From the IMG/VR virus record IMGVR_UViG_3300032053_000008: a stretch of DNA of 64,000 bases; one strand, 5' to 3'. The DNA is from a virus. The stretch's first letter is position 1; each line of letters starts with the position of its first letter. Of this stretch, positions 4,526 through 63,359 are shown one piece after another. Both the position numbers and the translations under genes were made by a program. The notes below the pieces were generated by a model. That model saw only the letters and a program-made list of their open reading frames with translations. It had not been told where the DNA came from and did no database searches.

Positions 4526-4921
4526 TTACCCAAGGTAAGAAGAGTCTGCCACGTCAAAAATAGCGGCACCAGAACCAGATACCTTGTAAGCATAAATTCC
4601 AGGAGGAACTATCAAATAAGTATAGTCTAAGGGACGCAAAGGGTAGCCTGTTCCAAGAGCGGCCACAGCCGTACTTGTTCCATCATCAAAAGCCACATAA
4701 AGAGCGGTAGCCAATGAATTGAAAAAGCAAACCATTTGACCTGGAACTGCAGTTAAAGTGGTAAAACTAGTTGAAGCTAGCCCAACAGGAATCATTAACC
4801 CTTCAGAATTAATGGATTTTGAGGCACCAGCTTCATCGTTATAGCGCATTTCAGTGTTGCTATAACCACCAGAAATCTTGTCTGTTAGTTTTTTTCTTTT
4901 TAAATCAGTAGTATACGACAT
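4526..4921 (-). CDS. Small beta-rich virion protein
   Basis: GGGAG RBS and TAATCTT motif upstream; composition typical of structural proteins. Confidence 0.55.
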   Translation of the reverse strand: MSYTTDLKRKKLTDKISGGYSNTEMRYNDEAGASKSINSEGLMIPVGLASTSFTTLTAVPGQMVCFFNSLATALYVAFDDGTSTAVAALGTGYPLRPLDYTYLIVPPGIYAYKVSGSGAAIFDVADSSYLG

Positions 4922-4944
4922 TTAGATAAACTCCCTATAAGGGT

Positions 4945-4951
4945 AAGATTA
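4945..4951 (-). promoter_or_regulatory. Putative late promoter motif TAATCTT
   Basis: Part of the 14-mer TAATCTTACCCTTA, repeated exactly at 15548-15561; lies just upstream of an RBS. Confidence 0.6.
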
Positions 4952-11177: not shown

Positions 11178-11204
11178 TAAAGTTTTTTGCCAAAGTGCCG
11201 ATAA
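11178..11204 (+). promoter_or_regulatory. Sigma-28/FliA-type promoter TAAAGTTT-N11-GCCGATAA
   Basis: Exact match to TAAA-N15-GCCGATAA, 25 nt upstream of the ATG at 11230. Confidence 0.75.
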
Positions 11205-11229: not shown

Positions 11230-11403
11230 ATGCAACACCTAAGCAAAAATGATCTTTACCTTTTAGCTAGAATTTTAAAAGCTTTTGAAGATATGGGAGC
11301 TAGCCCTGAGGATCTGGTCAAAGAAGCGGCAAATTTGGCCACAAAGCCAAATCTTATATATGACTGGGCTATTACCCTTGATTTGTGGTGGGAAGCTATA
11401 TGA
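11230..11403 (+). CDS. Small hypothetical protein, 57 aa (MQHLSKNDLYLLARIL...WWEAI)
   Basis: GAGGT RBS; ATGA overlap with the deaminase start; below the ORF-track cutoff. Confidence 0.7.
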   Translation: MQHLSKNDLYLLARILKAFEDMGASPEDLVKEAANLATKPNLIYDWAITLDLWWEAI

Positions 11404-11822
11404 GACCTGATTTCCACAGTATTTATATGGACCTGGCTAAGTCTATAGCTAAAAGATCTACTTGCTGCCGTAAACAAGTAGGTTCGGTTATCACAACAAC
11501 CGATCACCGTAAGGTGCTAGCTGTTGGCTATAATGGAAATGCAACAGGTTTGGCCAATGGATGCGATGATCCCGAAAAGTCCGGTAGCTGCGGATGCCTA
11601 CATGCGGAAAACAACAGCGTTATTAACTGTGATGCCCCAAGAGGGACTGAAAAATACGTTTACGTAACTCTTTTGCCATGTAAGATGTGTGCTAAGACGT
11701 TGATTAACCTGGGCAATATCAAAACCGTGTTTTATTGGGAAGACTACAGAGACAAAACTAGCTTAGATCTCTTTAAGCAAGTTGGAATAGAAGTGATAAA
11801 AATGGGGGACGCAAATGAGTGA
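11400..11822 (+). CDS. dCMP deaminase
   Basis: RSTC..KQVG, GYNG, LHAENN, PCKMC zinc-deaminase motifs; start MRPDF by ATGA coupling. Confidence 0.9.
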   Translation: MRPDFHSIYMDLAKSIAKRSTCCRKQVGSVITTTDHRKVLAVGYNGNATGLANGCDDPEKSGSCGCLHAENNSVINCDAPRGTEKYVYVTLLPCKMCAKTLINLGNIKTVFYWEDYRDKTSLDLFKQVGIEVIKMGDANE

Positions 11823-11991
11823 AGTAATTGAACTGAAAAAGAAAAAAGAAGAAAAAGCTGTGGAAGTTAAGCCTACCGAAGAGCTGTCTTTTGAGGAAGT
11901 AGTCAAAAGAAACAAAGAAAACGCTGAAAGAATGAAAAAAGATCGTGAAAAAGCCAACAAAGGTGTGATCCGCTCTTATCGCCTTAAGTAA
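11815..11991 (+). CDS. Small charged protein, 58 aa (MSEVIELKKKK...KANKGVIRSYRLK)
   Basis: GGGGG RBS-like site, overlaps the deaminase stop, open to TAA at 11989-11991; below the ORF-track cutoff. Confidence 0.75.
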   Translation: MSEVIELKKKKEEKAVEVKPTEELSFEEVVKRNKENAERMKKDREKANKGVIRSYRLK

Positions 11992-12019
11992 AAAGAAACG
12001 GCTACCACGAAGGTAGCCG
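11990..12019 (-). terminator. Intrinsic terminator
   Basis: Minus strand reads CGGCUACC-UUCGU-GGUAGCCG followed by UUUCUUUU. Confidence 0.8.
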
Positions 12020-12059
12020 CCATAAAAGGAGCGTTGATACACCAAGGGGTTAAACCCCT
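11990..12059 (-). ncRNA. Candidate ~70-nt late small RNA with an anti-SD segment
   Basis: Own TAATCTT motif (12064-12070) located after the capsid terminator; 5' hairpin AGGGGU-UUA-ACCCCU; linker GCUCCUUUU; 3' terminator. Confidence 0.5.
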
Positions 12060-12063
12060 AATA

Positions 12064-12070
12064 AAGATTA
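12064..12070 (-). promoter_or_regulatory. Putative late promoter motif TAATCTT
   Basis: Same motif as upstream of four structural units; here it sits between two terminators. Confidence 0.5.
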
Positions 12071-12083
12071 GACTTTTGACAAT

Positions 12084-12113
12084 AAAAAAGGCCGGGGTTT
12101 TAACTCGGCCTTT
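12084..12113 (-). terminator. Intrinsic terminator of the capsid operon
   Basis: Minus strand reads AAAGGCCG...CGGCCUUUUUU, about 20 nt after the MCP stop. Confidence 0.8.
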
Positions 12114-12132
12114 AGCTTATCTGCTGGGCAGA

Positions 12133-13542
12133 TTAGCTCAAGTTTTGGATCAAGACGTTTTTACGTGGCTCATAGCCAGCAAGTGTCAAGAAGCGGAAGT
12201 GAGCTTCTGGGACGCTCAAGTCAGCTACAGCCAGTTTCAAGCGGCTATATGGTGCAAGTTCACCCATACCCCAGGTGTCTTTCTGGACAAGGTGACCAGT
12301 AACGAAGCCTGGGATGCGGTTGCCCAAGTCAACAAACGCAGTCGAAGCTGGTGTGTCGATTTTGACGCGACCGATATACTTAGCGTCAGAACCATCGGTT
12401 TTGAAACCACGGTATACGCTGAAGAACAAAGTGCCAGCGCCTGGGGAAGCGATAGTAAGGGTGATTTTTTGACCAGCAGTAGCAGCTTGGGTTACAGTAG
12501 AGCTACGTGGGGATTCGCCGCGCTCGTTAGAAGCGGTAACGAAGTAAACGTAGGTAGCAGCAGCCAAAGATCCGCCAGCAGCAGCAGCAGCCGTTGGAAC
12601 AACAGGAGCATTAGGGGAACCGATGGATGGACGCAGTGGAGCAGTTTTACCCGACAAGAATCGGCTGTCTTCCAGAGCGATCGTACCATTAGAAACCCAC
12701 TGACGACGAAGGTCAGCACCGGAAGCGTCTTGAGCCGAACCGGCCAAGTGAATACGCTGGATAGAAGCACCGGCATTAGAGCCACCGTTCAAAGCAACAG
12801 CTTTGTTATAACCAGCAAGAACGATTGGGTCAACAAGCAGCAATTCTGCTTTACCCATGTTCATACGGCTACGAACAGCGGAATCTTCAATGATGCCTTG
12901 GCTGAGGGAACCGTTTTGGTTGAGGACAACCGACTGGTTCGAGCCGTAGGAATCAAACATTAAGTCTTGAGTGTTGAGCAAGTAGTCAGATTGCGTAACT
13001 TGGCACTCAACGCCAAGGATGTTTGGCAATTCTGGCATAGCAAGTGGGTTACAGTCAAACACACCAGCATTGCTGAAGTCGGCTTTTCCACGGAAAAGAT
13101 CGAATTCGATGTCGCCAGCCAGTTTCATAGCTGCGTTTTCAGCTTCACGGTCGGAACCGCCTTTGCCGTCAAACGTGTCAACCATGTTAGCTGCAACAGT
13201 TACCCGACGAACGGTCGAGTAAAAGCACATTGGCACAGTTGCTCGGATGTAATCACCCGTGTCAACATCACCAATAGCGCCTTCGCGCATAGCCGTTCCA
13301 CCGAAATGACCGTAGCTTAGCTGACGGTTAAATTGCATCAAAAGTGTTTTGACTTTTTTAGAGCCAAACATTTTTTGCAATTTAATGTGACTGTCATCGA
13401 AAGTCACGTTGTACATAACCGAAGACAGATCTTCGATTTGAAGGGCCGAGCCTTGTACAAGCGTACTAGGAGCAGCATTGTACTGACCAGCCGTCAAGGT
13501 CTTGACGAGTGATTCTAGTTGTTGATTGAGATTGTCAAACAT
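12133..13542 (-). CDS. Major capsid protein (SPO1/Twort-like, with a C-terminal FN3/Ig-like insertion)
   Basis: N-arm LVK|TLTAG...GSALQIEDL, IEFDLFRG, YVYFVTASNERGES, GELAPYSRLKLA; follows portal-protease-scaffold. Confidence 0.92.
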   Translation of the reverse strand: MFDNLNQQLESLVKTLTAGQYNAAPSTLVQGSALQIEDLSSVMYNVTFDDSHIKLQKMFGSKKVKTLLMQFNRQLSYGHFGGTAMREGAIGDVDTGDYIRATVPMCFYSTVRRVTVAANMVDTFDGKGGSDREAENAAMKLAGDIEFDLFRGKADFSNAGVFDCNPLAMPELPNILGVECQVTQSDYLLNTQDLMFDSYGSNQSVVLNQNGSLSQGIIEDSAVRSRMNMGKAELLLVDPIVLAGYNKAVALNGGSNAGASIQRIHLAGSAQDASGADLRRQWVSNGTIALEDSRFLSGKTAPLRPSIGSPNAPVVPTAAAAAGGSLAAATYVYFVTASNERGESPRSSTVTQAATAGQKITLTIASPGAGTLFFSVYRGFKTDGSDAKYIGRVKIDTPASTAFVDLGNRIPGFVTGHLVQKDTWGMGELAPYSRLKLAVADLSVPEAHFRFLTLAGYEPRKNVLIQNLS

Positions 13543-14468: not shown

Positions 14469-14936
14469 TTACATTTGTTGTGTAAGTGGGTTGATATAAT
14501 CGCTTGGGATAGTAGCATCAAGTGTAGGTGTCAAGGCCAACACAGCAGCAAAATCAGCAGCAGACTCAACGCCTGTAGCCGAATACATTTGAATTTTTGT
14601 TCCAAGTTGGCCGATAGCAGCCAAAACTTGGCCAGCCAAAGCAGCTTGAGCAGCGCTAGAAGTAGCAAAGGCTTCTTGGTAGAATTTGCAAACGTGTGGG
14701 GTGTACACAGTTTGTGGCATGCCTAAAGAATTGACAGTGCCTTGAGCTTCACTTTGAGCAAAGTCTGTTTCGATCAACAGCCACTCAAAAGCGCCAGTCG
14801 TGCCAAGCTGAAGAACCGGGAAGCCTTTAGCATCCAAGGTAGCGCTAGCAACAGGAACGCCGGTCAATTTAAGACGAACAGCCAAGTCACGAGACATCGC
14901 TTTGGCTTTGTCTACTACGTAAGTTTCAAGTGCCAT
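14469..14936 (-). CDS. Probable abundant head protein (decoration-like), first gene of the capsid operon
   Basis: Start moved to MALETY (14936) with GGAG RBS; co-oriented with scaffold and MCP. Confidence 0.55.
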   Translation of the reverse strand: MALETYVVDKAKAMSRDLAVRLKLTGVPVASATLDAKGFPVLQLGTTGAFEWLLIETDFAQSEAQGTVNSLGMPQTVYTPHVCKFYQEAFATSSAAQAALAGQVLAAIGQLGTKIQMYSATGVESAADFAAVLALTPTLDATIPSDYINPLTQQM

Positions 14937-14976
14937 TTTTTTACTCCGTAAAATGGTTATATAGAAAAACGAATAA

Positions 14977-15012
14977 AAGCTTTCCATACGGCATAACGCC
15001 AATAGAAAGCTT
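14977..15012 (-). promoter_or_regulatory. Long stem-loop in the capsid-operon leader
   Basis: AAGCUUUC...GAAAGCUU arms extended by further pairs (UAU/AUG, UGGC/GCCG). Confidence 0.5.
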
Positions 15013-15065
15013 AGGTTATTTTTTTTATTTTGATGAAAAAGCTATATAAGACTATGATTTTACTG

Positions 15066-15536
15066 TTAAAAAGACCATCTATATTGATCAATTACTAAGT
15101 CAGGTGATGTACTTAATCCGGCTGCAAACACATGACTAGCTGGGTTATTTTGGCTTTTAGCTATTTTCATATCTACAGGACTGAGGCCACGTCTCTTGGC
15201 CCATGACAAAGCCGCCTTTTTTACGTCTTCAGGTACATCTGCTCCAAATTCCATTTTAACTACGCCATTTTTATGGGTAGTTACTCCCATCTCATTTTTA
15301 GCTAAAGGTGCGTTTTCTGTAAGTCTTTTTACTAAAAGATCTCTAAATTCTTGATATATTTCATGTTTTTTTGCTGGTTCTAAAGTATTGATTTTAGTTG
15401 ACATTAAATGTTTCATCCAGGCATGAAACTTTGATTTAAGCTTTGGGGGGAGGTTGGTTACTCCAGCGTGACCTTTTGATCCTGCTTTACCTGTCCAAGC
15501 TTTAACTAGTTCCATACTCAAGCTATCTATATCCAT
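15066..15536 (-). CDS. Hypothetical head-associated protein
   Basis: GAGGTG RBS and TAATCTT motif; LVKA, LAKN and IAKS motifs. Confidence 0.6.
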   Translation of the reverse strand: MDIDSLSMELVKAWTGKAGSKGHAGVTNLPPKLKSKFHAWMKHLMSTKINTLEPAKKHEIYQEFRDLLVKRLTENAPLAKNEMGVTTHKNGVVKMEFGADVPEDVKKAALSWAKRRGLSPVDMKIAKSQNNPASHVFAAGLSTSPDLVIDQYRWSF

Positions 15537-15554
15537 TAAGCACCTCTTAAGGGT

Positions 15555-15561
15555 AAGATTA
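15555..15561 (-). promoter_or_regulatory. Putative late promoter motif TAATCTT
   Basis: Exact 14-mer shared with 4938-4951. Confidence 0.6.
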
Positions 15562-26408: not shown

Positions 26409-27392
26409 TTACTCTGCTACAAAATATTTGATTGTCGCTACGCTAACTGACAAATTTACTATAACTAGTGAATAAACCAAGCCAACTTTTGACATAAAAC
26501 CAATTAAATCTGGTTTTCCTGATGCAATTGGGTCAACCGTGTTTCTGTTGCTGGTTTCGCCGTTTAACTTAACAGCAACCATCTGATTTGACTCCAGGTA
26601 AATGAAATTCTTAGCACCACTATAGATCATAATGGTATCTAAAACATAAGTCAACCCAGTTTCAGTAGGGATAGGAGCAGTAGATATATAGTATACAGTA
26701 TACGGTGTACTATCTACTATGTTATACGAACCAATAGAGGCGGCACTTAGTGTGCCATAAATAGCTATAGTATTGCCAGCCTGGACGCCGTCTTGTACGT
26801 AAAACTGAACCTGGCCACTAGGGATAGGTCCAACTATCGTTTCTGACACGCCATTACAAGGATTACCTTGTCCGCGATTAACTTGAACCGTTTTTGCTGT
26901 GTTATTTACCGCTAAAACGATCCAAATACCTGAATTGATTGCATTAAATGAAAACGGACCAGTTTCAAAGGTACCAGTACCGGCAATTCTCATCACATCG
27001 CCAACCTGAACAGCGCTAAGGTCGGCACCAGGGAATGTAAAAACGGCTATGGCATTGTTGTTCATTTGAACAGTAGCCGAGGATATTCCAGTGGCTACAT
27101 GGGCAGTTTTAAAGCTACCTGGTCCAGAAGTAATAGACAAAGCATAAGTAGATGTTTTTACTTGACTATTAGACAACACCGAAGATCCGGTTAACCCTGT
27201 GGAAATCAAAGAGTTAACTATGGAGTATTGTTGTCCTGGAGCTATGGTTATGGTGTTGTGGGCTGGATTTTCAATAGCTAAAGCCGATAAACGCCTGGTC
27301 CAGTCATAGTCCTTGTATTGAGGATTGTCTGTATTTCCAGAAGGATCTGAATAGGCTAAAAGCTGATTTGTAATGTTAAGTATTGAAGTCAT
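26409..27392 (-). CDS. Beta-rich virion structural protein
   Basis: Ser/Thr/Gly-rich; GGAG RBS; first gene after a TAATCTT motif. Confidence 0.6.
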   Translation of the reverse strand: MTSILNITNQLLAYSDPSGNTDNPQYKDYDWTRRLSALAIENPAHNTITIAPGQQYSIVNSLISTGLTGSSVLSNSQVKTSTYALSITSGPGSFKTAHVATGISSATVQMNNNAIAVFTFPGADLSAVQVGDVMRIAGTGTFETGPFSFNAINSGIWIVLAVNNTAKTVQVNRGQGNPCNGVSETIVGPIPSGQVQFYVQDGVQAGNTIAIYGTLSAASIGSYNIVDSTPYTVYYISTAPIPTETGLTYVLDTIMIYSGAKNFIYLESNQMVAVKLNGETSNRNTVDPIASGKPDLIGFMSKVGLVYSLVIVNLSVSVATIKYFVAE

Positions 27393-27419: not shown

Positions 27420-27426
27420 AAGATTA
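27420..27426 (-). promoter_or_regulatory. Putative late promoter motif TAATCTT (portal operon)
   Basis: In the short intergenic gap between the terminase and the head operon. Confidence 0.6.
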
Positions 27427-27436
27427 GGGGACGGAC

Positions 27437-30017: not shown

Positions 30018-30315
30018 AAATCTTCTTGTCGTTTAGTATATACACACATTCAGAGTCATTCCAAAGTATGTATTGTGTCCAATCAGATATAAGATTAAGT
30101 AATTCCTGGGTTTTCTTGGATTTACGGTACTTGCCAGTAGATTTGGCATTAAAGGTAACTACGTGAGTATTGGGCTCTATTTTGATCTCAACTGCATTTA
30201 CATTTGGCAATAAAACCCCATAACACTGGAGCTGATACACTTGGAACTCATGGACAGAGCCGAAGCGCTCGGTCATACCCTTTAGCCAATACAACTGGTC
30301 TTTTGGTGACTTCAC
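29956..30315 (-). CDS. Hypothetical protein
   Basis: GTGA overlap with the nuclease stop; 119 aa. Confidence 0.6.
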   Translation of the reverse strand: MKSPKDQLYWLKGMTERFGSVHEFQVYQLQCYGVLLPNVNAVEIKIEPNTHVVTFNAKSTGKYRKSKKTQELLNLISDWTQYILWNDSECVYILNDKKIYDSRIDKPDPVRNPDQTETE

Positions 30316-40500: not shown

Positions 40501-41039
40501 CTTTCTGGGTAAACTTTGCCAGTTACCCTGTCTACCAGTAGGTACTTCTGGACTACCCCCACAAGACAGCTAGAGCACACCGTAATGTGACCAGCAGCTC
40601 CAGCTACCTCTTCTAGGGTGGCAATAGGCTTGGTTTCTCCCCACAACACCACAGCCCTTTGTTCCATTTTGGGAGTTAAGTTGGAAAAGTATTCAAAAGC
40701 CCATTCATCTTTGAAGTGAACGGTCAAATGCACATACATTTCACGCAACTTTTTGCGTATTTTAGGGGTATCTCCTGATGCCTGTATGTATTCTTGGGTG
40801 ATTTCATCTATAAACGGTGGCTGCATATACAGCTCTATCCCAAGGATAGGCTTGATACCTGCCTTCTTAGAAGCTGAATAAAGGTGCATAAGGCTGTTCA
40901 TGTTGCCATGATCAGTAAGGGCAAGGTAAGGGCAATCGAGTTCTTTAGTTCTTTTAATGAGGCTGTCTACACTAGCCGCACCGTCCAGCGATGAGTCTGA
41001 ATGCTGGTGATTGTTGACGAGTTGCCTAAATTGAGTCAT
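37569..41039 (-). CDS. dnaE: DNA polymerase III alpha subunit (family C)
   Basis: PHP domain (HQHSDSSLDG, TDHG, DSH), RGSAGGS, PDVDMD, HPCGVVI, KFDFLG, YSFNKSH; start MTQF with GGAGG RBS. Confidence 0.95.
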   Translation of the reverse strand: MTQFRQLVNNHQHSDSSLDGAASVDSLIKRTKELDCPYLALTDHGNMNSLMHLYSASKKAGIKPILGIELYMQPPFIDEITQEYIQASGDTPKIRKKLREMYVHLTVHFKDEWAFEYFSNLTPKMEQRAVVLWGETKPIATLEEVAGAAGHITVCSSCLVGVVQKYLLVDRVTGKVYPERATKSYYLLRDLVGKDDFFVEVFPHEIVKDWVKPTYDKATKQKLTEGYFKPNECTPWFPDGDLQKKANQFVLDLAKQNGDKVLISLDSHFAYPEQQLVQESKLGNGLEQWKFSNSYHILTTQEAAKCLKHTLDVSDRDIEEWVDNSYYWASKFDSFKLKTNKDRWVLPPLDPDWMKKLKLAIDRHGRMKWDNPIYVARLKEEIDLFTNNGKLNLMPYFFTVEDIANFCREAGILMTTRGSAGGSLMLYVLGVSATDPILYGLSLPRFLTLGRINENVLPDVDMDFGRKDEVLDYLRKKYGDNFAPISIDVMLKIKSSIKDAERSLLGEVRKSTEDMCKKLPTSPQGSNEYEFVFGGKKGVGIINEYEELKSYSENLANKNIWDTVVQMLGVQRQKSQHPCGVVIADKPIQEYVPLIRVGKGESLVTGFNPKWVEERGLLKFDFLGVKTLYDIEECLNLIKKRHNKTYNPWDLPYNPKVFEEFGRGNTVSVFQFDSATVVPLLKKTKPMSIPELSNITALGRPGTLDALDDDGRTLAEVYCARAQGERVRYIHPDMEQITGNSFGIALYQEQTLSAFKLLVGYSDGETEKARRAIGKKDPVLMVECLKDLHNGCKKRGWSDHQVDLLVQQIKASSNYSFNKSHSTSYAQVAYACMWLKCHFPIEWWASVLSHSTKDDIISKFWKDVKKYVTLPDINLSEEDFVIKDNKLIAPLGMIIGVGPAAYHQLVANKPYKDFRHFIECHFKEKIKGQKAEKSAVHSGIAHKLIVSGVLDSLMPESDMEIEHKIKLFEKTKAEVKKEKRKPEDSSYSEYRPLGKYLAKKAVIHTYFEDLRTLILPPRGGKHLSNDLWVWTKEYESDGHKYKKTMTFVDGPQIEKLMSNAHKYKDAEEKIWALAYITEETYKKYQNNTKQFTRLVADINGSLMELIYWPPWGENVAPTGFKKMVVVVEFTLRKGKLNVSSVEHTYRPEDAEKPDVQ

Positions 41040-41055
41040 AGTTACCTCCACGGAC

Positions 41056-41083
41056 AATATACCACCAAAACGAAAAAAGGCAA
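41056..41083 (-). promoter_or_regulatory. Sigma-70-type promoter for the dnaE operon, TTGCCT-N16-TATATT with extended -10 TG
   Basis: Overlaps the upstream terminator; ends ~17 nt before the ATG. Confidence 0.55.
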
Positions 41084-41096
41084 GCCGAAGCTTGCC
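41073..41096 (-). terminator. Intrinsic terminator
   Basis: Minus strand reads GGCAAGC-UUCG-GCUUGCC-UUUUUU. Confidence 0.9.
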
Positions 41097-41119
41097 CGTT
41101 AACTATAACCGAAATAGAC

Positions 41120-41314
41120 TTAAAGTAGGTCACCAAACATATCTTTGATGTTTTCTAGTGCCTTTTCCATGTCTTCTTTGTTCAATTTCAGATAGTGCAT
41201 GATTTTTGTATCACTTACGCCATTTTCGTTAGCCTTTAGAGCCCTACGAATGCTGTTACCATACTCTTCGGCATAAATGAAATCATGGTCGTTTTGAAGC
41301 TTTTCGTAACTCAT
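41120..41314 (-). CDS. Small protein with an HTH/sigma-region-4-like pattern
   Basis: ENGVSDTKIMHYLKLNKEDMEKALENIKD; last gene before the terminator. Confidence 0.5.
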   Translation of the reverse strand: MSYEKLQNDHDFIYAEEYGNSIRRALKANENGVSDTKIMHYLKLNKEDMEKALENIKDMFGDLL

Positions 41315-41681
41315 TTGAAAACTCTATAATGACGGTTTTTGCTTTTTCTCTGGATTTTTCTAGCTCTTCGATATTCTTATACAAGTCTAAGATAACAGTA
41401 GTCAGCATGTCAACATACATTTGCATGTCAGCCTTCTTTTCTTTATAAAAGAACAAATCAGCCTTCATTTCTTGGTATTCATTCATGCTAACAGTTATGC
41501 CAGGCTTACGAATAGTTTCAAAAGCCTCTTCTATCTCTCTAATTTTTGTTTGGTAGGTATAAAAACGGAGTAAAGAGTGTGCCTTGTCGTTTTCAGTACG
41601 ATTGAGTTCGTACTGTTTTTCGGCAATTTGTATTTCTATTTTAATCTGATGTTTGTTGCCCTGAGGCGTCCAAATATTCAC
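41283..41681 (-). CDS. Hypothetical coiled-coil protein (start uncertain; GTG at 41681 chosen)
   Basis: Fills the gap between neighbours; the track's longer start overlaps the upstream gene heavily. Confidence 0.5.
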   Translation of the reverse strand: MNIWTPQGNKHQIKIEIQIAEKQYELNRTENDKAHSLLRFYTYQTKIREIEEAFETIRKPGITVSMNEYQEMKADLFFYKEKKADMQMYVDMLTTVILDLYKNIEELEKSREKAKTVIIEFSNELRKASKRP

Positions 41682-42009
41682 GGCACTTAGGTTTATCCTT
41701 GTGGCCACAGTTTTTGCAAATTTTATACACTTTAAGAATGTTTCCCTGTGGCAAGACCATTTCAGTGTGTTCCGACTCTTCACATTTTGGACAATACCAT
41801 TTCTTTTCTTTTTTAATTTTCTTAGGTTTGTCCGGTTCATCATATATGGCATACAGCAATCTTTCTTCGTCTTGTCTGATAAGCTTACTGAGCCTGGAGT
41901 TTTCTTTTTCTAAACTTGATACTTTCTTTTGAAGCTGTCTAACCAGTCCCCTATAATATTCTAGGTCGTTTTTGTCACTTTTTTCCGCAGCTCGATGAGT
42001 TTTGGCCAT
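41641..42009 (-). CDS. Coiled-coil plus zinc-ribbon protein
   Basis: CPKC...CKNC. Confidence 0.65.
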   Translation of the reverse strand: MAKTHRAAEKSDKNDLEYYRGLVRQLQKKVSSLEKENSRLSKLIRQDEERLLYAIYDEPDKPKKIKKEKKWYCPKCEESEHTEMVLPQGNILKVYKICKNCGHKDKPKCREYLDASGQQTSD

Positions 42010-42021
42010 GAAAACCCCTAA

Positions 42022-42744
42022 TCAGGGTACTAACCCCGTCCAAGAACCTTTTTCATTTAACATCATTGGGAACAGTTTTGGAGCACCGTTAACAATACCT
42101 CCGGTACCTATAATAGGTCTTTGTAGGTTAAGCTTGTCGTAAGCAAAAGCCAAAGCTTTAGGGTTAATCAGGCAACCAACCTGCATTGACCACAAAAGAT
42201 CGTCTGGGTTACTAATATAATCAATCTTAAACTCTGTGTGAAAGTGGCCTTGTACGCAAGATACTCCACGTTGTTTTACCAGAGTGATGCCATTTTTGCA
42301 GATACCATGACACACGTAGATCTTTTCGCCTTTTGGGCCTACAAGCATTAAGTCGTCTACAAAAGACCATCCCTTGCCAACGCCGTAAAGGTCATTGTAG
42401 GGACGCAAAAAAGCTCTAGGTAGTCCACCAGCTAAAATCTTTCTAAGTGGTAAATCACCATGGTTAGAGCCAATAATGATCATCTTAGGGAATAGTTTTT
42501 CCAGTTCAGCGGCTTGGATCTGCAATTGCTGGAGTTCATGTCCAGCACCATATAGATCTGGATCGGAATCATGGAAAGAAACGTTATGAAAATCTCCTAG
42601 ATCTCCCATAGATATAATGAGATCAAACTGGTACTTTTTCTTTAGGGCTTTCATAAAGGACATGAAATCTGGATGTCCATAAGGTAAATGGACATCTGAA
42701 ATAAATAAAATACGTAGCTTGCGCCAATCTATTTTGAGTTTCAT
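42022..42744 (-). CDS. Calcineurin-like metallophosphoesterase
   Basis: SDVHLP, MGDLGD, GSNH, CHG, QGHFH, VGCL. Confidence 0.85.
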   Translation of the reverse strand: MKLKIDWRKLRILFISDVHLPYGHPDFMSFMKALKKKYQFDLIISMGDLGDFHNVSFHDSDPDLYGAGHELQQLQIQAAELEKLFPKMIIIGSNHGDLPLRKILAGGLPRAFLRPYNDLYGVGKGWSFVDDLMLVGPKGEKIYVCHGICKNGITLVKQRGVSCVQGHFHTEFKIDYISNPDDLLWSMQVGCLINPKALAFAYDKLNLQRPIIGTGGIVNGAPKLFPMMLNEKGSWTGLVP

Positions 42745-42755
42745 GCCCCGCTCCC

Positions 42756-43232
42756 TTATACTGGCTTCAGAGGTTCATATACAGCTAGAATTTCAATTTC
42801 TGTGTCTGCTGATATATCGATGTTTTGGCCAACTGCTTGACCTTTAATCAAAGAGACGATTTCTGCGTCAGAATCTGGATTACTCATATATAACAAAAAA
42901 TTGCTCATAAGAGTTTCACCAGATTTAGTATATTTTAGAACCACTAGACTAGTATCGGTAATGGTATCAGCAGGACCAATCATTTTAGCTTCAAGCATAG
43001 AGGCTACTCGGTCGGCATCTTTGGCATCGCCAGCGGCCCTGACTTTCGCCATAACGCTACTATTAAAATTAGGGATAGATTCCCTTAAAGTTTCAGACAT
43101 TGCAGCCATAGCTTCAGCCTGAGAAACAACAGCGTAATCTAGTGCAACTATACGGTCTTTTATCATATAGAAAAGTTGACCAATCTCATTGATTTTCTTT
43201 TCCATTTCATTAAGGCGATCTAAACTAGACAT
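42756..43232 (-). CDS. Hypothetical protein
   Basis: AGGAGG RBS supports the start MSSLD at 43232. Confidence 0.65.
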   Translation of the reverse strand: MSSLDRLNEMEKKINEIGQLFYMIKDRIVALDYAVVSQAEAMAAMSETLRESIPNFNSSVMAKVRAAGDAKDADRVASMLEAKMIGPADTITDTSLVVLKYTKSGETLMSNFLLYMSNPDSDAEIVSLIKGQAVGQNIDISADTEIEILAVYEPLKPV

Positions 43233-43235
43233 ATT

Positions 43236-43255
43236 CAACCTCCTAATTTAATTGA
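43236..43255 (-). repeat. 20-nt repeated leader TCAATTAAATTAGGAGGTTG, copy 1
   Basis: Identical to 44696-44715. Confidence 0.85.
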
Positions 43256-43816
43256 TTATTTAGTTAACTGCTGCAATAAAAGACTTCCAGCTCCACCTAA
43301 CCCTTGAGATTTGCTAAGATTATTGCCAGCTTCTTGTGCATTCATCTCATTCATCATCGATTGACTTGGAAATTTTTTTCTTTCTGGGTTACTAACAAAA
43401 CCTTGACCAACAGGTTTAACTTCTATTTCTACTTCGTGTTGTTCATCTTGTATAGGCTTTTCTGTTTGTTTGACATTTTTCTTTATAAGAGGTTTAGAGG
43501 GGGACTTAGGCTTCATCATTTGTTGTTGACCTGCTCCAGTTAATAAAACCTTGTCTGCTAAAGCTGTTAAAGCTTCTATTTGTTCTTCGGTCCAAGGAAG
43601 CTCAGCTGACTCACGTCTAATAACCAAAGCTTCGCTTGGGCTTCTCATGCCTAATAAGCTTTCCAATCTAGCTTCAGCAAAAGCTCTGATTTCCTCAGTA
43701 ACAAGTTCAACAACTTCATCATCTGAAGCCCCTTGCTCAAAAAGATCTTGGCTAAGCAAAACCTGATATAGCTTTGCTTGTTCCACTCTTAAAAAAGCTT
43801 CAGATCTGATAGTCAT
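43256..43816 (-). CDS. Hypothetical protein
   Basis: ATGA-coupled to the RuvC-like gene. Confidence 0.65.
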   Translation of the reverse strand: MTIRSEAFLRVEQAKLYQVLLSQDLFEQGASDDEVVELVTEEIRAFAEARLESLLGMRSPSEALVIRRESAELPWTEEQIEALTALADKVLLTGAGQQQMMKPKSPSKPLIKKNVKQTEKPIQDEQHEVEIEVKPVGQGFVSNPERKKFPSQSMMNEMNAQEAGNNLSKSQGLGGAGSLLLQQLTK

Positions 43817-44403
43817 AAAAGATCCTTCATAATGTCATCTAACTGAGAAATTTTAAATCTGCCTGGTAACCATATCTTTGAAGCATACCAAGCTAGACAG
43901 ATCGCATCTGCAATGTCATTGTCTTTCAATTTAAGAGATAAGTCAAACTCTTCATTTATCATAGCTACAGCAAGATGCTTTGGGGTTATTTTACCTCTAG
44001 CAACCTTTTGTTTAACTGATTTATTGTGCTTACGTTGATCTTTATCTAAACGAATGTGGAGTTTGTTTCGCCATTCGCTGGTGTCAACGTAAACTATCTT
44101 GTTTTGATAGTGCATGCGAAGTTTAGACAAAACTGAATAATGTATCCACTCAAGTCCTCTTTGGGTGGTACGCTGTTTACCCTTGTTAGTCTGCTCTATG
44201 ATAATAAAGTCAGGCTGGAGAGTCATAACCAAGGTGTACATATAGTCACCAACAGCGTTGGCCCTATCCATCTGATTATAATCGTATAGTGGATGGGTGC
44301 CAGGTGGTTCTGGGGCCACTAAAAGACCATAATCTACCAAGGATGAGCCTTCAAATAAGGCCCATCCAGTTTTATATGACAAATCCAAGCCAAGGAGTTT
44401 CAC
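43813..44403 (-). CDS. ruvC: RuvC-like Holliday junction resolvase
   Basis: LLGLDLS..TGWA, IIIE, SEWR, DNDIADAI. Confidence 0.8.
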   Translation of the reverse strand: MKLLGLDLSYKTGWALFEGSSLVDYGLLVAPEPPGTHPLYDYNQMDRANAVGDYMYTLVMTLQPDFIIIEQTNKGKQRTTQRGLEWIHYSVLSKLRMHYQNKIVYVDTSEWRNKLHIRLDKDQRKHNKSVKQKVARGKITPKHLAVAMINEEFDLSLKLKDNDIADAICLAWYASKIWLPGRFKISQLDDIMKDLL

Positions 44404-44693
44404 AGTTTTCCTTGGTCCTTGAGGATACGAACCAGCATAGTCTTTTTCAGCTTAATAGCTTTAAGTGGCTCTGTGTAAGTAAGCTTGGCCGTCTTAACTT
44501 GCTCTTCCAAAGATTTCAGGTCTTCGTCATCGGCCCGAGCCTCTTCGATTTCTTCCTGGTGACCCATAAGGCTAGCTAACTTGTCTTTGAGTTGTTCTGG
44601 ATTTAAACCAACAACTTCATCTAAAAAATGTTCATCTAGGTCTCTGATTTTATCCTCAAGCGACTTAGTTTTCTTACCTTTACCTCTACCCAT
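44400..44693 (-). CDS. Hypothetical coiled-coil protein with a basic N-terminus
   Basis: AGGAGG RBS; 97 aa. Confidence 0.7.
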   Translation of the reverse strand: MGRGKGKKTKSLEDKIRDLDEHFLDEVVGLNPEQLKDKLASLMGHQEEIEEARADDEDLKSLEEQVKTAKLTYTEPLKAIKLKKTMLVRILKDQGKL

Positions 44694-44695
44694 AC

Positions 44696-44715
44696 CAACC
44701 TCCTAATTTAATTGA
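44696..44715 (-). repeat. 20-nt repeated leader TCAATTAAATTAGGAGGTTG, copy 2
   Basis: Identical to 43236-43255. Confidence 0.85.
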
Positions 44716-45152
44716 ACAAAAGTGTTTTTTGTCCATGTTTCAACGTCAAGTATATCTTTTTTATATTCTATCGACAACACTATTCTATGATTTTTATTAC
44801 TAGTTAAAACTAAATCATTCTTAAGTACCGAATAAACCTCATTAAAGGGAGCCGCTAAAACTATAAGACTAGATAAATTATTAAGAACTGCCATAGTTTT
44901 GCGCCAGGACTCAGCCTCTGATTTAACAAAAAAAACTCTAGACATATCTTTGTCTATTACATCCAATGGATTAAAAAAAAGCTTTGGCGGTTTTACATTA
45001 TTAACGATAACATAAACTTGTAATTTTTGATCTGGATCACTAATAATAGCTTCAACTATAGATCTTGCATCATGAGGTACTGGAATATTAAAAATGAAAG
45101 GACGTTCAGCCCAAGGAGTAAATTCATCCAATCCAGCTTTTTTGTCCGTCAT
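44703..45152 (-). CDS. Hypothetical protein
   Basis: Overlaps the sbcC end; AT-rich. Confidence 0.55.
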   Translation of the reverse strand: MTDKKAGLDEFTPWAERPFIFNIPVPHDARSIVEAIISDPDQKLQVYVIVNNVKPPKLFFNPLDVIDKDMSRVFFVKSEAESWRKTMAVLNNLSSLIVLAAPFNEVYSVLKNDLVLTSNKNHRIVLSIEYKKDILDVETWTKNTFVQLN

Positions 45153-46812
45153 ATTGCACCTTTATAACATTGTCGCACATTTCCTTGATTTCTGTAGCGT
45201 GGTCAATAAGGATCACTAGTCCTTTATTTTCCTTGCGCATCGTTTCAATGATAGCAGCTTTTGTGGAAGCGTCAAGTCCATCCATAGATTCATCTAGAAC
45301 TAGCCACCCAAGATTGATTCCAGACCTTGATCTAATAGTTTCAGCTAGTGCCAAATCAACCGCCAGTTCAACCGCAGCCTGTTGTCCGCCAGATAAACTC
45401 TTCTTTTTGATTGCCTGGTTTTGCTTCCAGATAACCGTGTTAATCTTTTTGTTTACTTTGCCGCTCTTAGTAACCGATTCACTGGAAAACTCTAAGCTTA
45501 ACGTGTTGATATTGGGAATATTTTCCATAAAGCGATTAGCTCTAAGTTGGATCTCTCTCAAAACTTCATCAAAAATTACACCCAAGAACCCTTGGCGACC
45601 AAGTATCTGGAGTCCATGAGACAGTAAATGCTCTTTCAAGGCAAGTTCCTGGTCTTCTTGTTCTATTTGCTGTTTTCTGTGTATAGACATTTCAGCTTGG
45701 TCTATTTGATTTTTCAGTTGAGTGGACAGCTGACTCAGGCTGCCGATCATTGCTTGAGTTTGTTGTCCTGGAGACTGCAAATCGGCAATTTTTTGTCGCA
45801 ATAAGTTTTGATTTTGTCTCAATTGGTTTATATGGACAGGATCTTTGTACGGTTCCGCTGCGGTGATCACTGACTGGTTTGCCTGGTAAAGGTTCTTTAT
45901 ATGAGCCAAATGAAGCTCTCTTTGTTTGATAGCTTCTTGGTTCTGGTCCCAGTGTTGGCTACATGTTGGACATTTATGGCCTTTAAGTTCAGTCAATTCC
46001 TTAAAGATTATCTCAACCTTTGGTTTTATTTGACTATTTTCATAAGAGGCCTGAGAAGCTTTTCTGGTTATTGTGTTGAGCTTGTCTATTTCAGTTTCAT
46101 ATTGGTTGATTTCCTGATTAAGCTTTGAGATTTCAATGCCGGTCGTACTGTCGCCAATTTTTGACCTGTATTCCAAAATCTGGGATTGAGTCTGAGTCAA
46201 TTTATGTTTGGTTTCTGTGATGTCTATTGATGGAATAGAATTAAGCTGTTTTAGTAACATTGAGTTTGATGCCAATTCAATTTGAACGCTAGACAGCTGA
46301 CCAGACAAAGTGTCGGCAGCCTTTTCAAATTGATCCAGACCTAAAAGACCCGTAAGCAGAACTTTTTGTTCTGAATCGGTGAGGTCTATAAACTTGTTAG
46401 AGGTTCTTTGGGGACGATAGGTAAGCAGCTGCATAACCTCAGGGCTAACTCCCAAGATAGCCTGCAAGCGCTGTTCTGCATCTTTGGCCATAGTTTCTAT
46501 GGCTACCCCATTTTGAATTAGATGCAGTTTAGGAGAGCGAACTATGTCTATGAAATCACTGTCTTTTTGTATCTTAAGTCTCACATAAATACTGCTAGAA
46601 TTCCATCCCTTAAGTTCTGTTGCTGGCAAATCACAAAAACCAAAAGCAAAGGCTATAGCCTCAGGGATGGAGCTTTTGCCGATACCGCTAGTGGTGTCTT
46701 CGTTTGTGTGTTCACCTGCTATAAGAGTGATACCGCTTTGTTCAAAAGAGATAAGCTGACGATCCTGGAAAGACCGAAATCCCTCTATCTCAATTTCAAT
46801 CAGCTTTATCAT
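45124..46812 (-). CDS. sbcC: SbcC/Rad50-like ATPase
   Basis: GFRSF, SGIGKSS, coiled coil with CPTC zinc hook, LSGGQ, LVLDE, IDH. Confidence 0.9.
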   Translation of the reverse strand: MIKLIEIEIEGFRSFQDRQLISFEQSGITLIAGEHTNEDTTSGIGKSSIPEAIAFAFGFCDLPATELKGWNSSSIYVRLKIQKDSDFIDIVRSPKLHLIQNGVAIETMAKDAEQRLQAILGVSPEVMQLLTYRPQRTSNKFIDLTDSEQKVLLTGLLGLDQFEKAADTLSGQLSSVQIELASNSMLLKQLNSIPSIDITETKHKLTQTQSQILEYRSKIGDSTTGIEISKLNQEINQYETEIDKLNTITRKASQASYENSQIKPKVEIIFKELTELKGHKCPTCSQHWDQNQEAIKQRELHLAHIKNLYQANQSVITAAEPYKDPVHINQLRQNQNLLRQKIADLQSPGQQTQAMIGSLSQLSTQLKNQIDQAEMSIHRKQQIEQEDQELALKEHLLSHGLQILGRQGFLGVIFDEVLREIQLRANRFMENIPNINTLSLEFSSESVTKSGKVNKKINTVIWKQNQAIKKKSLSGGQQAAVELAVDLALAETIRSRSGINLGWLVLDESMDGLDASTKAAIIETMRKENKGLVILIDHATEIKEMCDNVIKVQYDGQKSWIG

Positions 46813-47053
46813 TGTTCATCCTTCTTTTGTGACTTTCACTACGCTCTTCCATAATTTGATCAATGTTTTCAAGGCGTTCTACGGCCCTAACCATAGCTCC
46901 ATTGTCTTTTATTTCAACATTTTGAGTGGTACCGGCCTTTAAAACAGGGAAACATTTACCGCCACATACCGGGCAAATGATAAACCTTTCCCTTTTTTGT
47001 TGGGACTGTCGATGAATACCATGTATATCGCAATTATATGTAAACCAGGCCAT
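46796..47053 (-). CDS. FmdB-like zinc-ribbon protein
   Basis: YNCDIH...CPVCG; GAGGT RBS. Confidence 0.65.
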   Translation of the reverse strand: MAWFTYNCDIHGIHRQSQQKRERFIICPVCGGKCFPVLKAGTTQNVEIKDNGAMVRAVERLENIDQIMEERSESHKRRMNNDKAD

Positions 47054-47070
47054 ATCTACCTCTTGCCGTC

Positions 47071-47098
47071 TTATCGGATAAAACTTAAAAAAACTTTA
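47071..47098 (-). promoter_or_regulatory. Sigma-28/FliA-type promoter TAAAGTTT-N12-TCCGATAA
   Basis: Directly after a terminator and 17 nt before the ATG at 47053. Confidence 0.65.
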
Positions 47099-47102
47099 AC
47101 AT

Positions 47103-47131
47103 AAAATTAAAAACCCGGCTAGTGCCGGGTT
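47103..47131 (-). terminator. Intrinsic terminator of the groEL unit
   Basis: Minus strand reads AACCCGGC-ACUA-GCCGGGUU followed by a U-rich tract. Confidence 0.8.
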
Positions 47132-47134
47132 ATC

Positions 47135-47359
47135 TTAAAAGAACTTGCTTACTTCATTGGCGCTGAGATGTTTATATATCACATCTCTAGCTGCCTCATA
47201 TCCTTCCATATATTCTTCAGATTTCTTTTCATCGTACTTAACAACAGATCTCATTTCTTGCAGAGCATCCCAGACAGCGGATATGATTTCATTAACCGCC
47301 ATTGTTCTTTCAATTTGCTCTTTGTCTTCAAAACCATCGAATTCTAAAGTTACTTTCAT
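47135..47359 (-). CDS. Small hypothetical phage protein
   Basis: AGGAG RBS; ATGA overlap with groEL. Confidence 0.7.
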   Translation of the reverse strand: MKVTLEFDGFEDKEQIERTMAVNEIISAVWDALQEMRSVVKYDEKKSEEYMEGYEAARDVIYKHLSANEVSKFF

Positions 47360-62522: not shown

Positions 62523-62981
62523 TTATGATAAAATTCGCCAGTCATTTAGGGTAGATGCAAAAACCAACTGCACAAATAACCCATTACGACTAAGGGCTAC
62601 GCTAGATTGCCCTTGGATAGTAGCTCCACCACCTGGAGTAACAGTTAAAGCATTGGTACCAAAAGATCCCAAGCCAGATCCGCCATCTATAATAACGATA
62701 CTGTCCCCTAAAACAGGGCCAGAAGGGAGAGTTACGTTTGTGGCAGTTGTGCCGGTGTTAACTATTAGCTGTTGCCAAGAGGTAGCGTTATAAGTAGCTT
62801 GATTTGTTACTTCTATTGTAGTATAAGCAAATCGGCCAATAGGTGCCCAAGATCCAGACAGATACTGATTAAGTCCATTTGCCGAATTAAAATATACGTC
62901 CCCTGCCTGCGGGTCTGCAGGAGGGGAAGCCAATGGAGTAAAAAGAGTACCTTTTCTTATTTTCAGGAATGATTTTGACAT
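62523..62981 (-). CDS. Virion protein with one gp9/gp10-like repeat
   Basis: Same repeat as the 560-aa protein; first gene after a TAATCTT motif. Confidence 0.65.
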   Translation of the reverse strand: MSKSFLKIRKGTLFTPLASPPADPQAGDVYFNSANGLNQYLSGSWAPIGRFAYTTIEVTNQATYNATSWQQLIVNTGTTATNVTLPSGPVLGDSIVIIDGGSGLGSFGTNALTVTPGGGATIQGQSSVALSRNGLFVQLVFASTLNDWRILS

Positions 62982-63026
62982 GTTGCGTTATCTTCCCACG
63001 TCCGATAAGCATAAAGATCCGTGGAT

Positions 63027-63033
63027 AAGATTA
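63027..63033 (-). promoter_or_regulatory. Putative late promoter motif TAATCTT (fibre operon)
   Basis: Intergenic, upstream of 62981. Confidence 0.55.
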
Positions 63034-63041
63034 AGATTTGC

Positions 63042-63302
63042 CTAGATCCTTTCCTCTTCAAAATCGTCATGTTCATCTTCGTCGTATTTATCTTCCCAGT
63101 TGTTCATTTCTTCCAGAGCAGCAACTTCTTCAATATTTTCCAGATGTTTTGCATACATATGGCCAATAATTTGGTCCATAACCAAAGCAACTATTCCAAT
63201 AATAGTCCATCCATTGCTTCCGGTAAGTATCATACCAAGAATAAATAAAGCCCAAACACCGACAGACAAAATTCTAAAGTTTTTCCAGGTTGTGCTATCC
63301 AT
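63042..63302 (-). CDS. Small two-TM membrane protein with a very acidic tail
   Basis: Two hydrophobic helices; AAGGAG RBS. Confidence 0.7.
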   Translation of the reverse strand: MDSTTWKNFRILSVGVWALFILGMILTGSNGWTIIGIVALVMDQIIGHMYAKHLENIEEVAALEEMNNWEDKYDEDEHDDFEEERI

Positions 63303-63332: not shown

Positions 63333-63359
63333 TTATCGGTTGTTTTGTGGAAAACTTTA
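63333..63359 (-). promoter_or_regulatory. Sigma-28/FliA-type promoter TAAAGTTT-N11-ACCGATAA
   Basis: TAAA-N15-ACCGATAA, 30 nt before the ATG at 63302. Confidence 0.7.

What the first reader, a model, noticed from the sequence alone, without database searches (positions are those of the whole stretch)
11178..11204. Phage genes under sigma-28 (FliA)-type promoters
Seen: three intergenic sites share TAAAGTTT-N11/12-[G/T/A]CCGATAAG, each correctly oriented 17-30 nt before a start codon. They are 11178-11204 (+, dCMP deaminase unit), 47071-47098 (-, heading the ~6-kb sbcC...ruvC...64-aa HTH unit, right after a terminator) and 63333-63359 (-, membrane protein). Known: TAAA-N15-GCCGATAA is the FliA consensus, whereas phage early promoters are usually housekeeping-sigma type; in Bdellovibrio, FliA drives much of attack-phase transcription. 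Inference: the phage either uses the host flagellar sigma, tying infection to a motile cell state, or encodes a FliA-like sigma outside this window.
Basis: partly seen in the sequence, partly recalled or inferred. Interest (0 to 1): 0.85.

Follow-up and report, generated by a model that had tools for sequence, protein, structure and literature searches.

The report
Flagellar-sigma promoters in a large phage
A large uncultured phage drives about ten non-structural gene units, three of them in this window, from near-perfect copies of the promoter type that bacteria use for flagellar (sigma-28/FliA) genes. Comparison with related phages suggests that the host's FliA reads them, not the phage's own truncated sigma factor, so part of the infection programme would depend on the host's motility state.

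Summary
The three sites are exact TAAAGTTT-N11/12-[G/T/A]CCGATAA matches, 25, 17 and 30 nt before start codons and correctly oriented (0 expected by chance). The 137-kb phage record holds 9 exact and 2 one-mismatch sites, and 10 of the 11 face a nearby gene start.

The phage's only sigma gene lies inside this window (51826-52821). It stops just after region 4.1, so it has no -35-reading helix-turn-helix. All 18 homologues share this truncation, including the Myxococcus phage Mx1 sigma.

This sigma family goes with a different, -10-only motif, C(C/T)TAATCT. That motif sits before virion genes at orthologous positions in this phage and in a distant relative (G004).

The host-type promoter class differs by clade. 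This phage and its four nearest relatives use the sigma-28 type; G004 uses extended -10 sigma-70 sites; Mx1 and seven other large relatives have no sigma-28 sites.

Host FliA is therefore the likeliest reader (about 0.7). This is untested, and the host is unknown. A Bdellovibrio host was not shown. One unnamed ex-"Deltaproteobacteria" phylum is a lead: it has many identical chromosomal sites and a shared 58-aa gene.

The scan had already reported this promoter class from other windows of the same genome.

The parts
11178..11204 (+). Sigma-28-type promoter P1 (TAAAGTTT-N11-GCCGATAA), in a 60-nt divergent gap, 25 nt before the ATG at 11230
11230..11991 (+). Unit driven by P1: a 57-aa ORF (11230-11403), dCMP deaminase (11385-11822) and a 58-aa ORF (11815-11991). 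The 58-aa ORF has single-copy homologues in 107 of 131 genomes of one phylum
47071..47098 (-). Sigma-28-type promoter P2 (TAAAGTTT-N12-TCCGATAA), 17 nt before the ATG at 47053. An orthologous site is kept in relative L002
47112..47131 (-). Intrinsic terminator hairpin plus T-run, ending the upstream GroEL-like unit just before P2
41078..47053 (-). About 6-kb unit driven by P2: Zn-ribbon/Lar-like 85 aa (46796-47053), SbcC (45124-46812), RuvC-like (43813-44403), SbcD-like Metallophos (42022-42744), 64-aa ORF (41120-41314), terminator (41078-41097)
63333..63359 (-). Sigma-28-type promoter P3 (TAAAGTTT-N11-ACCGATAA), 30 nt before the ATG at 63302
63042..63302 (-). 86-aa protein with two hydrophobic segments and an acidic tail, driven by P3
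51826..52821 (+). The phage's only sigma-70-family gene (P0001, 331 aa). It has regions 2, 3 and 4.1 and then stops, so there is no region 4.2 helix-turn-helix.
50310..50338 (+). Sigma-70-like TTGACC-N17-TAAGGT before the helicase-sigma operon. The orthologous spot in G004 has TGGTATAAT
4944..4951 (-). Second promoter class (TAATCTTA core of C(C/T)TAATCT) before a head-cluster gene. G004 has the same motif at the orthologous position
15554..15561 (-). Second-class motif before 15066-15536, orthologous to the G004 site at 131973
27421..27428 (-). Second-class motif (CCTAATCT) before 26409-27392, orthologous to the G004 site at 119429
30090..30097 (-). Second-class motif in the 294-nt gap 30018-30311
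63026..63033 (-). Second-class motif before 62523-62981, directly downstream of the small gene driven by P3

Best explanation
The three sites are working promoters of the sigma-28 (FliA) class, part of a set of about 11 in this phage. The host RNA polymerase carrying the host's own FliA most likely binds TAAAGTTT with sigma region 4.2 and GCCGATAA with regions 2.4/3.0, and starts transcription a few bases downstream. That would give short leaders carrying the Shine-Dalgarno sequence. The sites head non-structural units, which are often counter-oriented islands inside virion modules: dCMP deaminase, the SbcCD/RuvC recombination unit and small membrane proteins in this window, and a Fis-type HTH protein and an SLT transglycosylase elsewhere in the genome. 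Virion genes instead use a -10-only motif, C(C/T)TAATCT, probably read by the phage's truncated sigma. The sigma gene itself sits behind a sigma-70-like promoter. What is shown: the motif, its statistics, its orientation, its clade distribution, the sigma truncation and the second motif.
For: (1) Nine exact and two one-mismatch matches to both boxes and the spacing of the sigma-28 consensus in 137 kb, where none is expected. Ten of the 11 sit 17-172 nt upstream of a co-oriented ORF, nine of them 17-38 nt upstream with a Shine-Dalgarno sequence. (2) The -35 box is invariant, yet the only phage sigma lacks region 4.2. This holds in all 18 homologues (28-64% identity), in Mx1 and in the AlphaFold model. 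The sigma resembles RpoD rather than FliA. (3) The record has no match to FliA, Sigma70_r4 or FlgM. (4) The motif is confined to the nearest clade: L002/L003, L004, L006 and G001 (5 exact, about 12 plausible). There is no exact match in Mx1 or in eight other 139-172-kb relatives, and the relaxed pattern is at background level (9 in 1.54 Mb) in about 90 other loci that carry the same sigma family. (5) The sigma family instead goes with C(C/T)TAATCT: 24 intergenic sites in G004, 9 in G000, 11 CCTAATAT in G001, and several in Mx1. In G000 and G004 these lie at orthologous positions before orthologous virion genes. (6) Where G000 has sigma-28-type sites, G004 has 14 intergenic TGGTATAAT extended -10 sites heading counter-strand islands and arrays of small genes. 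One weak orthologue pair (25% identity; G000 genome 54012-54356 and G004 14763-15095) is behind a sigma-28-type site in G000 and an extended -10 site in G004. (7) Identical promoters are frequent on the chromosomes of one bacterial phylum (up to 37 per genome) and rare in a control phylum.
Against: There are no transcript data. The host is unknown, so the presence and activity of FliA in it are assumed. The record is only 84% complete, and the homology search lists a longest contig of 158.6 kb for this sigma's cluster that could not be fetched. Clades with and without the motif also differ in their sigma sequence, so a change in the phage sigma's specificity, or an unknown phage partner that supplies -35 reading, is not formally excluded. 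The second motif drifts between clades (CTTAATCT, CCTAATCT, CCTAATAT), which shows that sigma specificity can move. In many bacteria free FliA is limited by FlgM.
Confidence: 0.7

Rival explanations
1. The phage's own truncated sigma (window 51826-52821) reads these sites, alone or with an unidentified phage protein that recognises TAAAGTTT. The analogy is T4 MotA/AsiA, or a detached region 4.
For: The phage encodes a sigma-70-family protein with regions 2 and 3. The motif is limited to the clade whose sigmas are at least 42% identical to it. Relative G005 has a small ORF with a Sigma70_r4 match.
Against: Region 4.2 is missing throughout the family. G000 and G001 have no Sigma70_r4 match. The 64-aa ORF suggested as a detached region 4 has no sigma or HTH family match. 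The sigma family tracks a different motif that is conserved in position. A chance match to both sigma-28 boxes and their spacing by an unrelated recognition system is improbable.
Confidence: 0.12
2. A full-length FliA-like sigma is encoded in the part of the phage genome missing from this record and reads the sites.
For: The record is 84% complete, and a longer 158.6-kb contig is listed for the same sigma's cluster.
Against: No such gene is found in 137 kb, in G001, or in the 96-100% complete relatives G002-G005; the only Sigma70_r4 match above the Pfam cut-off there is a 153-aa ORF in G005. A second, full-length sigma would be unusual for this phage family.
Confidence: 0.08
3. The sites are not promoters but binding sites for some other protein, or repeated sequence with no transcriptional role.
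For: One site (genome 21273) has no downstream co-oriented gene. In G001 a small paralogous gene family carries look-alike sequence in its first codons.
Against: The position and orientation relative to start codons, the placement just after terminators, the exact two-box architecture, the variable spacers, and conservation in relatives that share only about 39% median protein identity.
Confidence: 0.03

Closest known systems
Class 3 flagellar and chemotaxis promoters read by sigma-28 (FliA/SigD), consensus TAAAGTTT-N11-GCCGATAA
   Same: Both boxes and the spacing match exactly or with one mismatch. The sites lie a short distance upstream of genes.
   Different: They are on a virulent-looking phage genome, before nucleotide-metabolism, recombination and small membrane-protein genes and not motility genes. 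Their density (9 exact in 137 kb) far exceeds that of the bacterial chromosomes searched (at most 37 in 4.7 Mb).
Bdellovibrio bacteriovorus attack-phase regulon (Karunker et al. 2013, PMC3627812)
   Same: There FliA-type promoters drive many non-flagellar genes (92 of 140 attack-phase promoters). Likewise, the sites in genome G034 found here mostly precede lipoprotein-like genes.
   Different: The consensus reported there is TTAAG-N16-CCGATA. The lineage with many exact matches here gave no exact hit to Bdellovibrio or Bacteriovoracaceae 16S primers. A phage link is not described in that paper.
flxA in the E. coli Qin cryptic prophage, a FliA-dependent gene (PMC1935009)
   Same: A phage-borne gene under host sigma-28 control (28-fold lower without FliA).
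   Different: That is a single gene in a defective prophage, not a genome-wide promoter class in a large phage clade.
T4 late transcription: gp55, a sigma lacking region 4, reading a -10-only TATAAATA (own knowledge)
   Same: This is the analogy for the phage's truncated sigma and the -10-only C(C/T)TAATCT motif before virion genes.
   Different: The sigma here keeps regions 3 and 4.1 and is not detectably related to gp55. No gp33 or gp45 analogue was identified. This applies to the second motif, not to the reported sites.

Membership tests
Sigma-28 (FliA)-dependent promoters | -35 element TAAAGTTT | tested here: met
   Exact in all three window sites and in 10 of 11 genome sites
Sigma-28 (FliA)-dependent promoters | -10 element GCCGATAA | tested here: met
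   CCGATAA is exact in all three, with G, T or A as the first base; 10 of 11 genome sites are exact
Sigma-28 (FliA)-dependent promoters | Spacing of about 11 nt between the two 8-mers | tested here: met
   N11 in 9 sites and N12 in 2
Sigma-28 (FliA)-dependent promoters | Located upstream of and co-oriented with a transcription unit | tested here: met
   10 of 11 sites; terminators flank the P2 unit
Sigma-28 (FliA)-dependent promoters | Transcription start just downstream of the -10 element | not testable with these tools
   No RNA data
Sigma-28 (FliA)-dependent promoters | Activity depends on FliA holoenzyme | not testable with these tools
   The host is unknown. There is only comparative support
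Phage-encoded FliA-like sigma factor | Full-length group-3 sigma with regions 2, 3 and 4.2 matching the FliA model | tested here: not met
   No TIGR02479 or PF04545 match in 137 kb. P0001 ends after region 4.1 and scores better against RpoD than against FliA
Region-4-less phage sigma with a -10-only promoter (works like T4 gp55) | Sigma lacks region 4.2, and a conserved single-box motif precedes late genes | tested here: met
   Truncation in 18 of 18 homologues. C(C/T)TAATCT lies before orthologous virion genes in G000 and G004. Binding itself was not tested

The most novel reading that the evidence does not exclude
A whole clade of Mx1-related large phages has switched its host-read promoters from the housekeeping sigma to sigma-28. 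The hosts would belong to a little-studied ex-deltaproteobacterial phylum in which sigma-28 runs a large non-flagellar regulon. Infection would then be licensed by the host's motile or 'attack-like' state, and the phage's near-consensus promoters would compete for a sigma that is abundant in exactly the cells the phage meets.
Probability: 0.45. Interest if true: 0.75.

Novelty: new variant of a known kind. Interest (0 to 1): 0.65.

Why it matters
Phages are known to use the host housekeeping sigma or to bring their own sigma or polymerase. My searches of the open literature found no genome-wide use of the flagellar sigma by a phage; the nearest precedent was one prophage gene, flxA. If true, expression of about ten phage units would be tied to the host's motility state. 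That bears on when infection succeeds. It also gives a sequence-only clue to host lineage, and a natural set of very strong sigma-28 promoters. The contrast between clades (sigma-28 type against extended -10 type, with the phage-sigma motif unchanged) shows how a phage family rewires only its host-read promoters when it changes host.

Tried and rejected
- DNA search of 7 kb against the phage collection: no match.
- Single-sequence search for sigma relatives in viral contigs: none. The alignment-based search worked.
- The genome search on the records behind L002, L004 and L006: not held.
- The listed 158.6-kb contig was not among the places returned, and the longest one returned (116 kb) came without DNA.
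- Host by CRISPR-like matches: three 20-kb pieces of the window against all 131 genomes of the candidate phylum gave no spacer. The 31-nt, 94% hit in G016 lies in unique coding DNA with no repeats. The other 77 kb of the record were not searched.
- Naming the candidate phylum: taxonomy is withheld. The Bdellovibrio primer Bd529F gave only one hit, with one mismatch; the Bacteriovoracaceae primer Bac676F gave none. Exact look-up of three G034 proteins: not in the collection.
- The 64-aa ORF as a detached sigma region 4: no support from Pfam or PHROGs.
- A weak Sigma70_r4_2 hit (E 0.055) in a 283-aa virion-cluster ORF: treated as noise.
- Sigma-70-type consensus scan of 40900-54800: not enriched over shuffles, 39 against 33.6 +/- 5.8.
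- Rfam on 11700-12200: nothing near a gathering score.
- Protein atlas on the 58-aa ORF: no informative hit. Neighbours of its chromosomal homologue are topoisomerase I and a phosphoribosyltransferase, not flagellar genes.

Full report
**Observation.** The three reported sites are in the sequence as described. The pattern TAAAGTTT-N10-13-CCGATAA matches exactly at 11178-11204 (+), 47071-47098 (-) and 63333-63359 (-). No match occurred in 100 dinucleotide-preserving shuffles. The start codons follow 25, 17 and 30 nt after CCGATAA, each with a Shine-Dalgarno sequence. Site 1 lies in a 60-nt divergent gap. Site 2 follows a strong terminator hairpin (47131-47112), and its unit ends at a second terminator (41097-41078), so it heads a unit of about 6 kb.

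- a 57-aa ORF, dCMP deaminase and a 58-aa ORF after site 1;
- a Zn-ribbon/Lar-like protein, SbcC, a RuvC-like resolvase, an SbcD-like phosphoesterase and a 64-aa ORF after site 2;
- an 86-aa two-TM protein after site 3.

**Genome-wide picture.** The window is part of a 136,843-bp IMG/VR virus record with 41% G+C, rated 84% complete. The record has 9 exact sites and 2 with one mismatch. The next best candidates have three mismatches and lie inside genes. Ten of the 11 sites are 17-172 nt upstream of a co-oriented ORF, and nine are within 38 nt with a ribosome-binding site. One site, at genome 21273, is an orphan that points into a convergent operon. Outside the window the sites precede a Fis-type HTH protein, an SLT transglycosylase, a metallopeptidase-like protein and small ORFs. 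This is a real promoter class, not chance.

**Who reads them: the phage sigma.** A search for sigma-70 region 2 found one gene in the record, inside this window (51826-52821, P0001, 331 aa). It aligns with RpoD through regions 2, 3 and 4.1, and ends where the region 4.2 helix-turn-helix should begin. Eighteen homologues (28-64% identical, 325-359 aa) all end at the same point, as does the annotated sigma of Myxococcus phage Mx1. The truncation is therefore a family trait and not an assembly error. The AlphaFold model (pLDDT 78) ends after two C-terminal helices. Its best structural matches are housekeeping sigmas, not FliA. The record has no match to the FliA model, to Sigma70_r4 or to FlgM. 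A sigma without region 4.2 is a poor candidate for reading promoters whose most invariant part is the -35 box.

**Who reads them: comparative test.** I collected about 90 loci that carry this sigma family.
- The sigma-28-type motif is present only in the nearest clade. L002/L003 (sigma 61% identical) have a site at the orthologous position before the Zn-ribbon/SbcC unit. L004 and L006 (43-45%) have one site each. G001 (42%) has 5 exact sites and about 12 plausible ones.
- Mx1 and eight other 139-172-kb relatives have no exact site. A relaxed pattern is at background level in the other loci: 9 in 1.54 Mb, against 12 in G000 and 19 in G001.
- De novo k-mer analysis of intergenic DNA found a second motif. 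In G000 it is C(T/C)TAATCT(TA), at 9 sites, all before minus-strand virion genes. In G004, a complete 157-kb relative whose sigma is 37% identical, CCTAATCTTA occurs at 24 intergenic sites. G001 has CCTAATAT at 11 sites, and Mx1 has CCTAATCT before several start codons.
- The G000 and G004 sites lie before orthologous genes. For example, window 4526-4921, 15066-15536 and 26409-27392 correspond to G004 149953, 132000 and 119485.
- In G004, the places that G000 fills with sigma-28-type sites (counter-strand islands, arrays of small genes) carry 14 intergenic TGGTATAAT extended -10 sites. One weak orthologue pair (25% identity) is behind a sigma-28-type site in G000 and an extended -10 site in G004.

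So the motif that travels with the truncated sigma is C(C/T)TAATCT, while the other promoter class changes with the clade. That is what is expected if the host's sigma reads it. G000's helicase-sigma operon has a sigma-70-like TTGACC-N17-TAAGGT, and the same spot in G004 has TGGTATAAT. The phage therefore probably uses three classes of promoter.

**Host.** The host is unknown.
- The exact pattern is rare in a control phylum (that of a MAG labelled Gammaproteobacteria): 6 hits in 41 genomes, at most 2 per genome. It is common in the phylum of a MAG labelled "Deltaproteobacteria bacterium bog_1112": 24 of 41 genomes, up to 37 per genome.
- In genome G034 these sites mostly precede lipoprotein-like genes. 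This recalls the FliA-driven attack-phase regulon of Bdellovibrio (PMC3627812).
- That MAG also bins four contigs with the same phage sigma family.
- The 58-aa third gene of the P1 unit (11815-11991) has one homologue each in 107 of the 131 genomes of this phylum (up to 67% identity, C-terminus KANKGVIRSYRLK). It has none in 132 sampled genomes of the control phylum.

Against a simple Bdellovibrio reading, this phylum has only 131 species, and neither a Bdellovibrio-specific nor a Bacteriovoracaceae-specific 16S primer matches exactly. No CRISPR-like match was found with 60 kb of the window. The lineage is a lead, not a result, and other phyla were not tested.

**Verdict.** These are sigma-28-class promoters, and the host FliA is the likeliest reader (about 0.7). 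The idea of a FliA-like phage sigma outside the window is not supported, and a Bdellovibrio host is not shown. I found no report of a phage using sigma-28 promoters genome-wide in the open literature searched. The nearest precedent is the FliA-dependent flxA gene of the Qin prophage. Earlier follow-ups in this scan reached the same reading from other windows of this genome. Here I re-derived it independently and added three things: the orthologous-position evidence for the second motif, the promoter-class contrast with G004, and the host-lineage lead.

Noticed in passing
window 4944-4951, 15554-15561, 27421-27428, 30090-30097, 63026-63033 (all minus strand); also G004 and G001: A second, -10-only promoter-like motif, C(C/T)TAATCT(TA), precedes virion genes and is conserved in position between G000 and G004. 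It is probably the cognate site of the truncated phage sigma.
   Followed up: yes
window 11815-11991 (+): A 58-aa ORF overlaps the dCMP deaminase stop codon. It has single-copy homologues of about 70 aa in 107 of 131 genomes of one phylum and none in 132 control genomes. All eight chromosomal copies inspected carry a sigma-54-type TGGCA(T/C)-N4/5-TTGC upstream. Function unknown; the neighbours of the one copy examined (G028) are not flagellar genes.
   Followed up: partly
window 50227-50362: The divergent region before the helicase-sigma operon has a sigma-70-like TTGACC-N17-TAAGGT and two copies of ACGTAGT nearby, which may be an operator.
   Followed up: no
genome 10735-10790 (outside the window; L106): Two copies of GGTACGTAAAAGTAC lie just upstream of a sigma-28-type site whose first gene is a 68-aa Fis-family HTH protein (Pfam 2e-11). 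This looks like an autoregulated unit.
   Followed up: no
genome 21273-21299 (+) (outside the window; L107): An exact sigma-28-type site in the last codons of a gene, with no co-oriented gene downstream. It points into a convergent operon, so it may produce antisense or interfering transcription.
   Followed up: no
genome 7639-7852 (outside the window; L106): Three to four tandem copies of a unit of about 43 nt in an intergenic gap.
   Followed up: no
G001 45757, 52672, 52959, 55526 (L100): A family of small paralogous ORFs whose first codons (ATG GAA GCT AAA GTT ATT ... ACC GAT AAG) mimic the sigma-28 motif with one mismatch. They may be coding look-alikes and not promoters.
   Followed up: no
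L111-L140 (genome G034): Thirty chromosomal sigma-28-type sites, most before ORFs with lipoprotein-like signal peptides, which points to a large non-flagellar sigma-28 regulon in this unnamed lineage. One site (G034 contig 78) is 91% identical over 32 nt to window site 3.
   Followed up: partly
G005:C1:98104-98199: A 153-aa ORF with a Sigma70_r4 match above the Pfam cut-off, in a relative that also has the truncated sigma. It could be a separate region-4-like protein in that clade.
   Followed up: no
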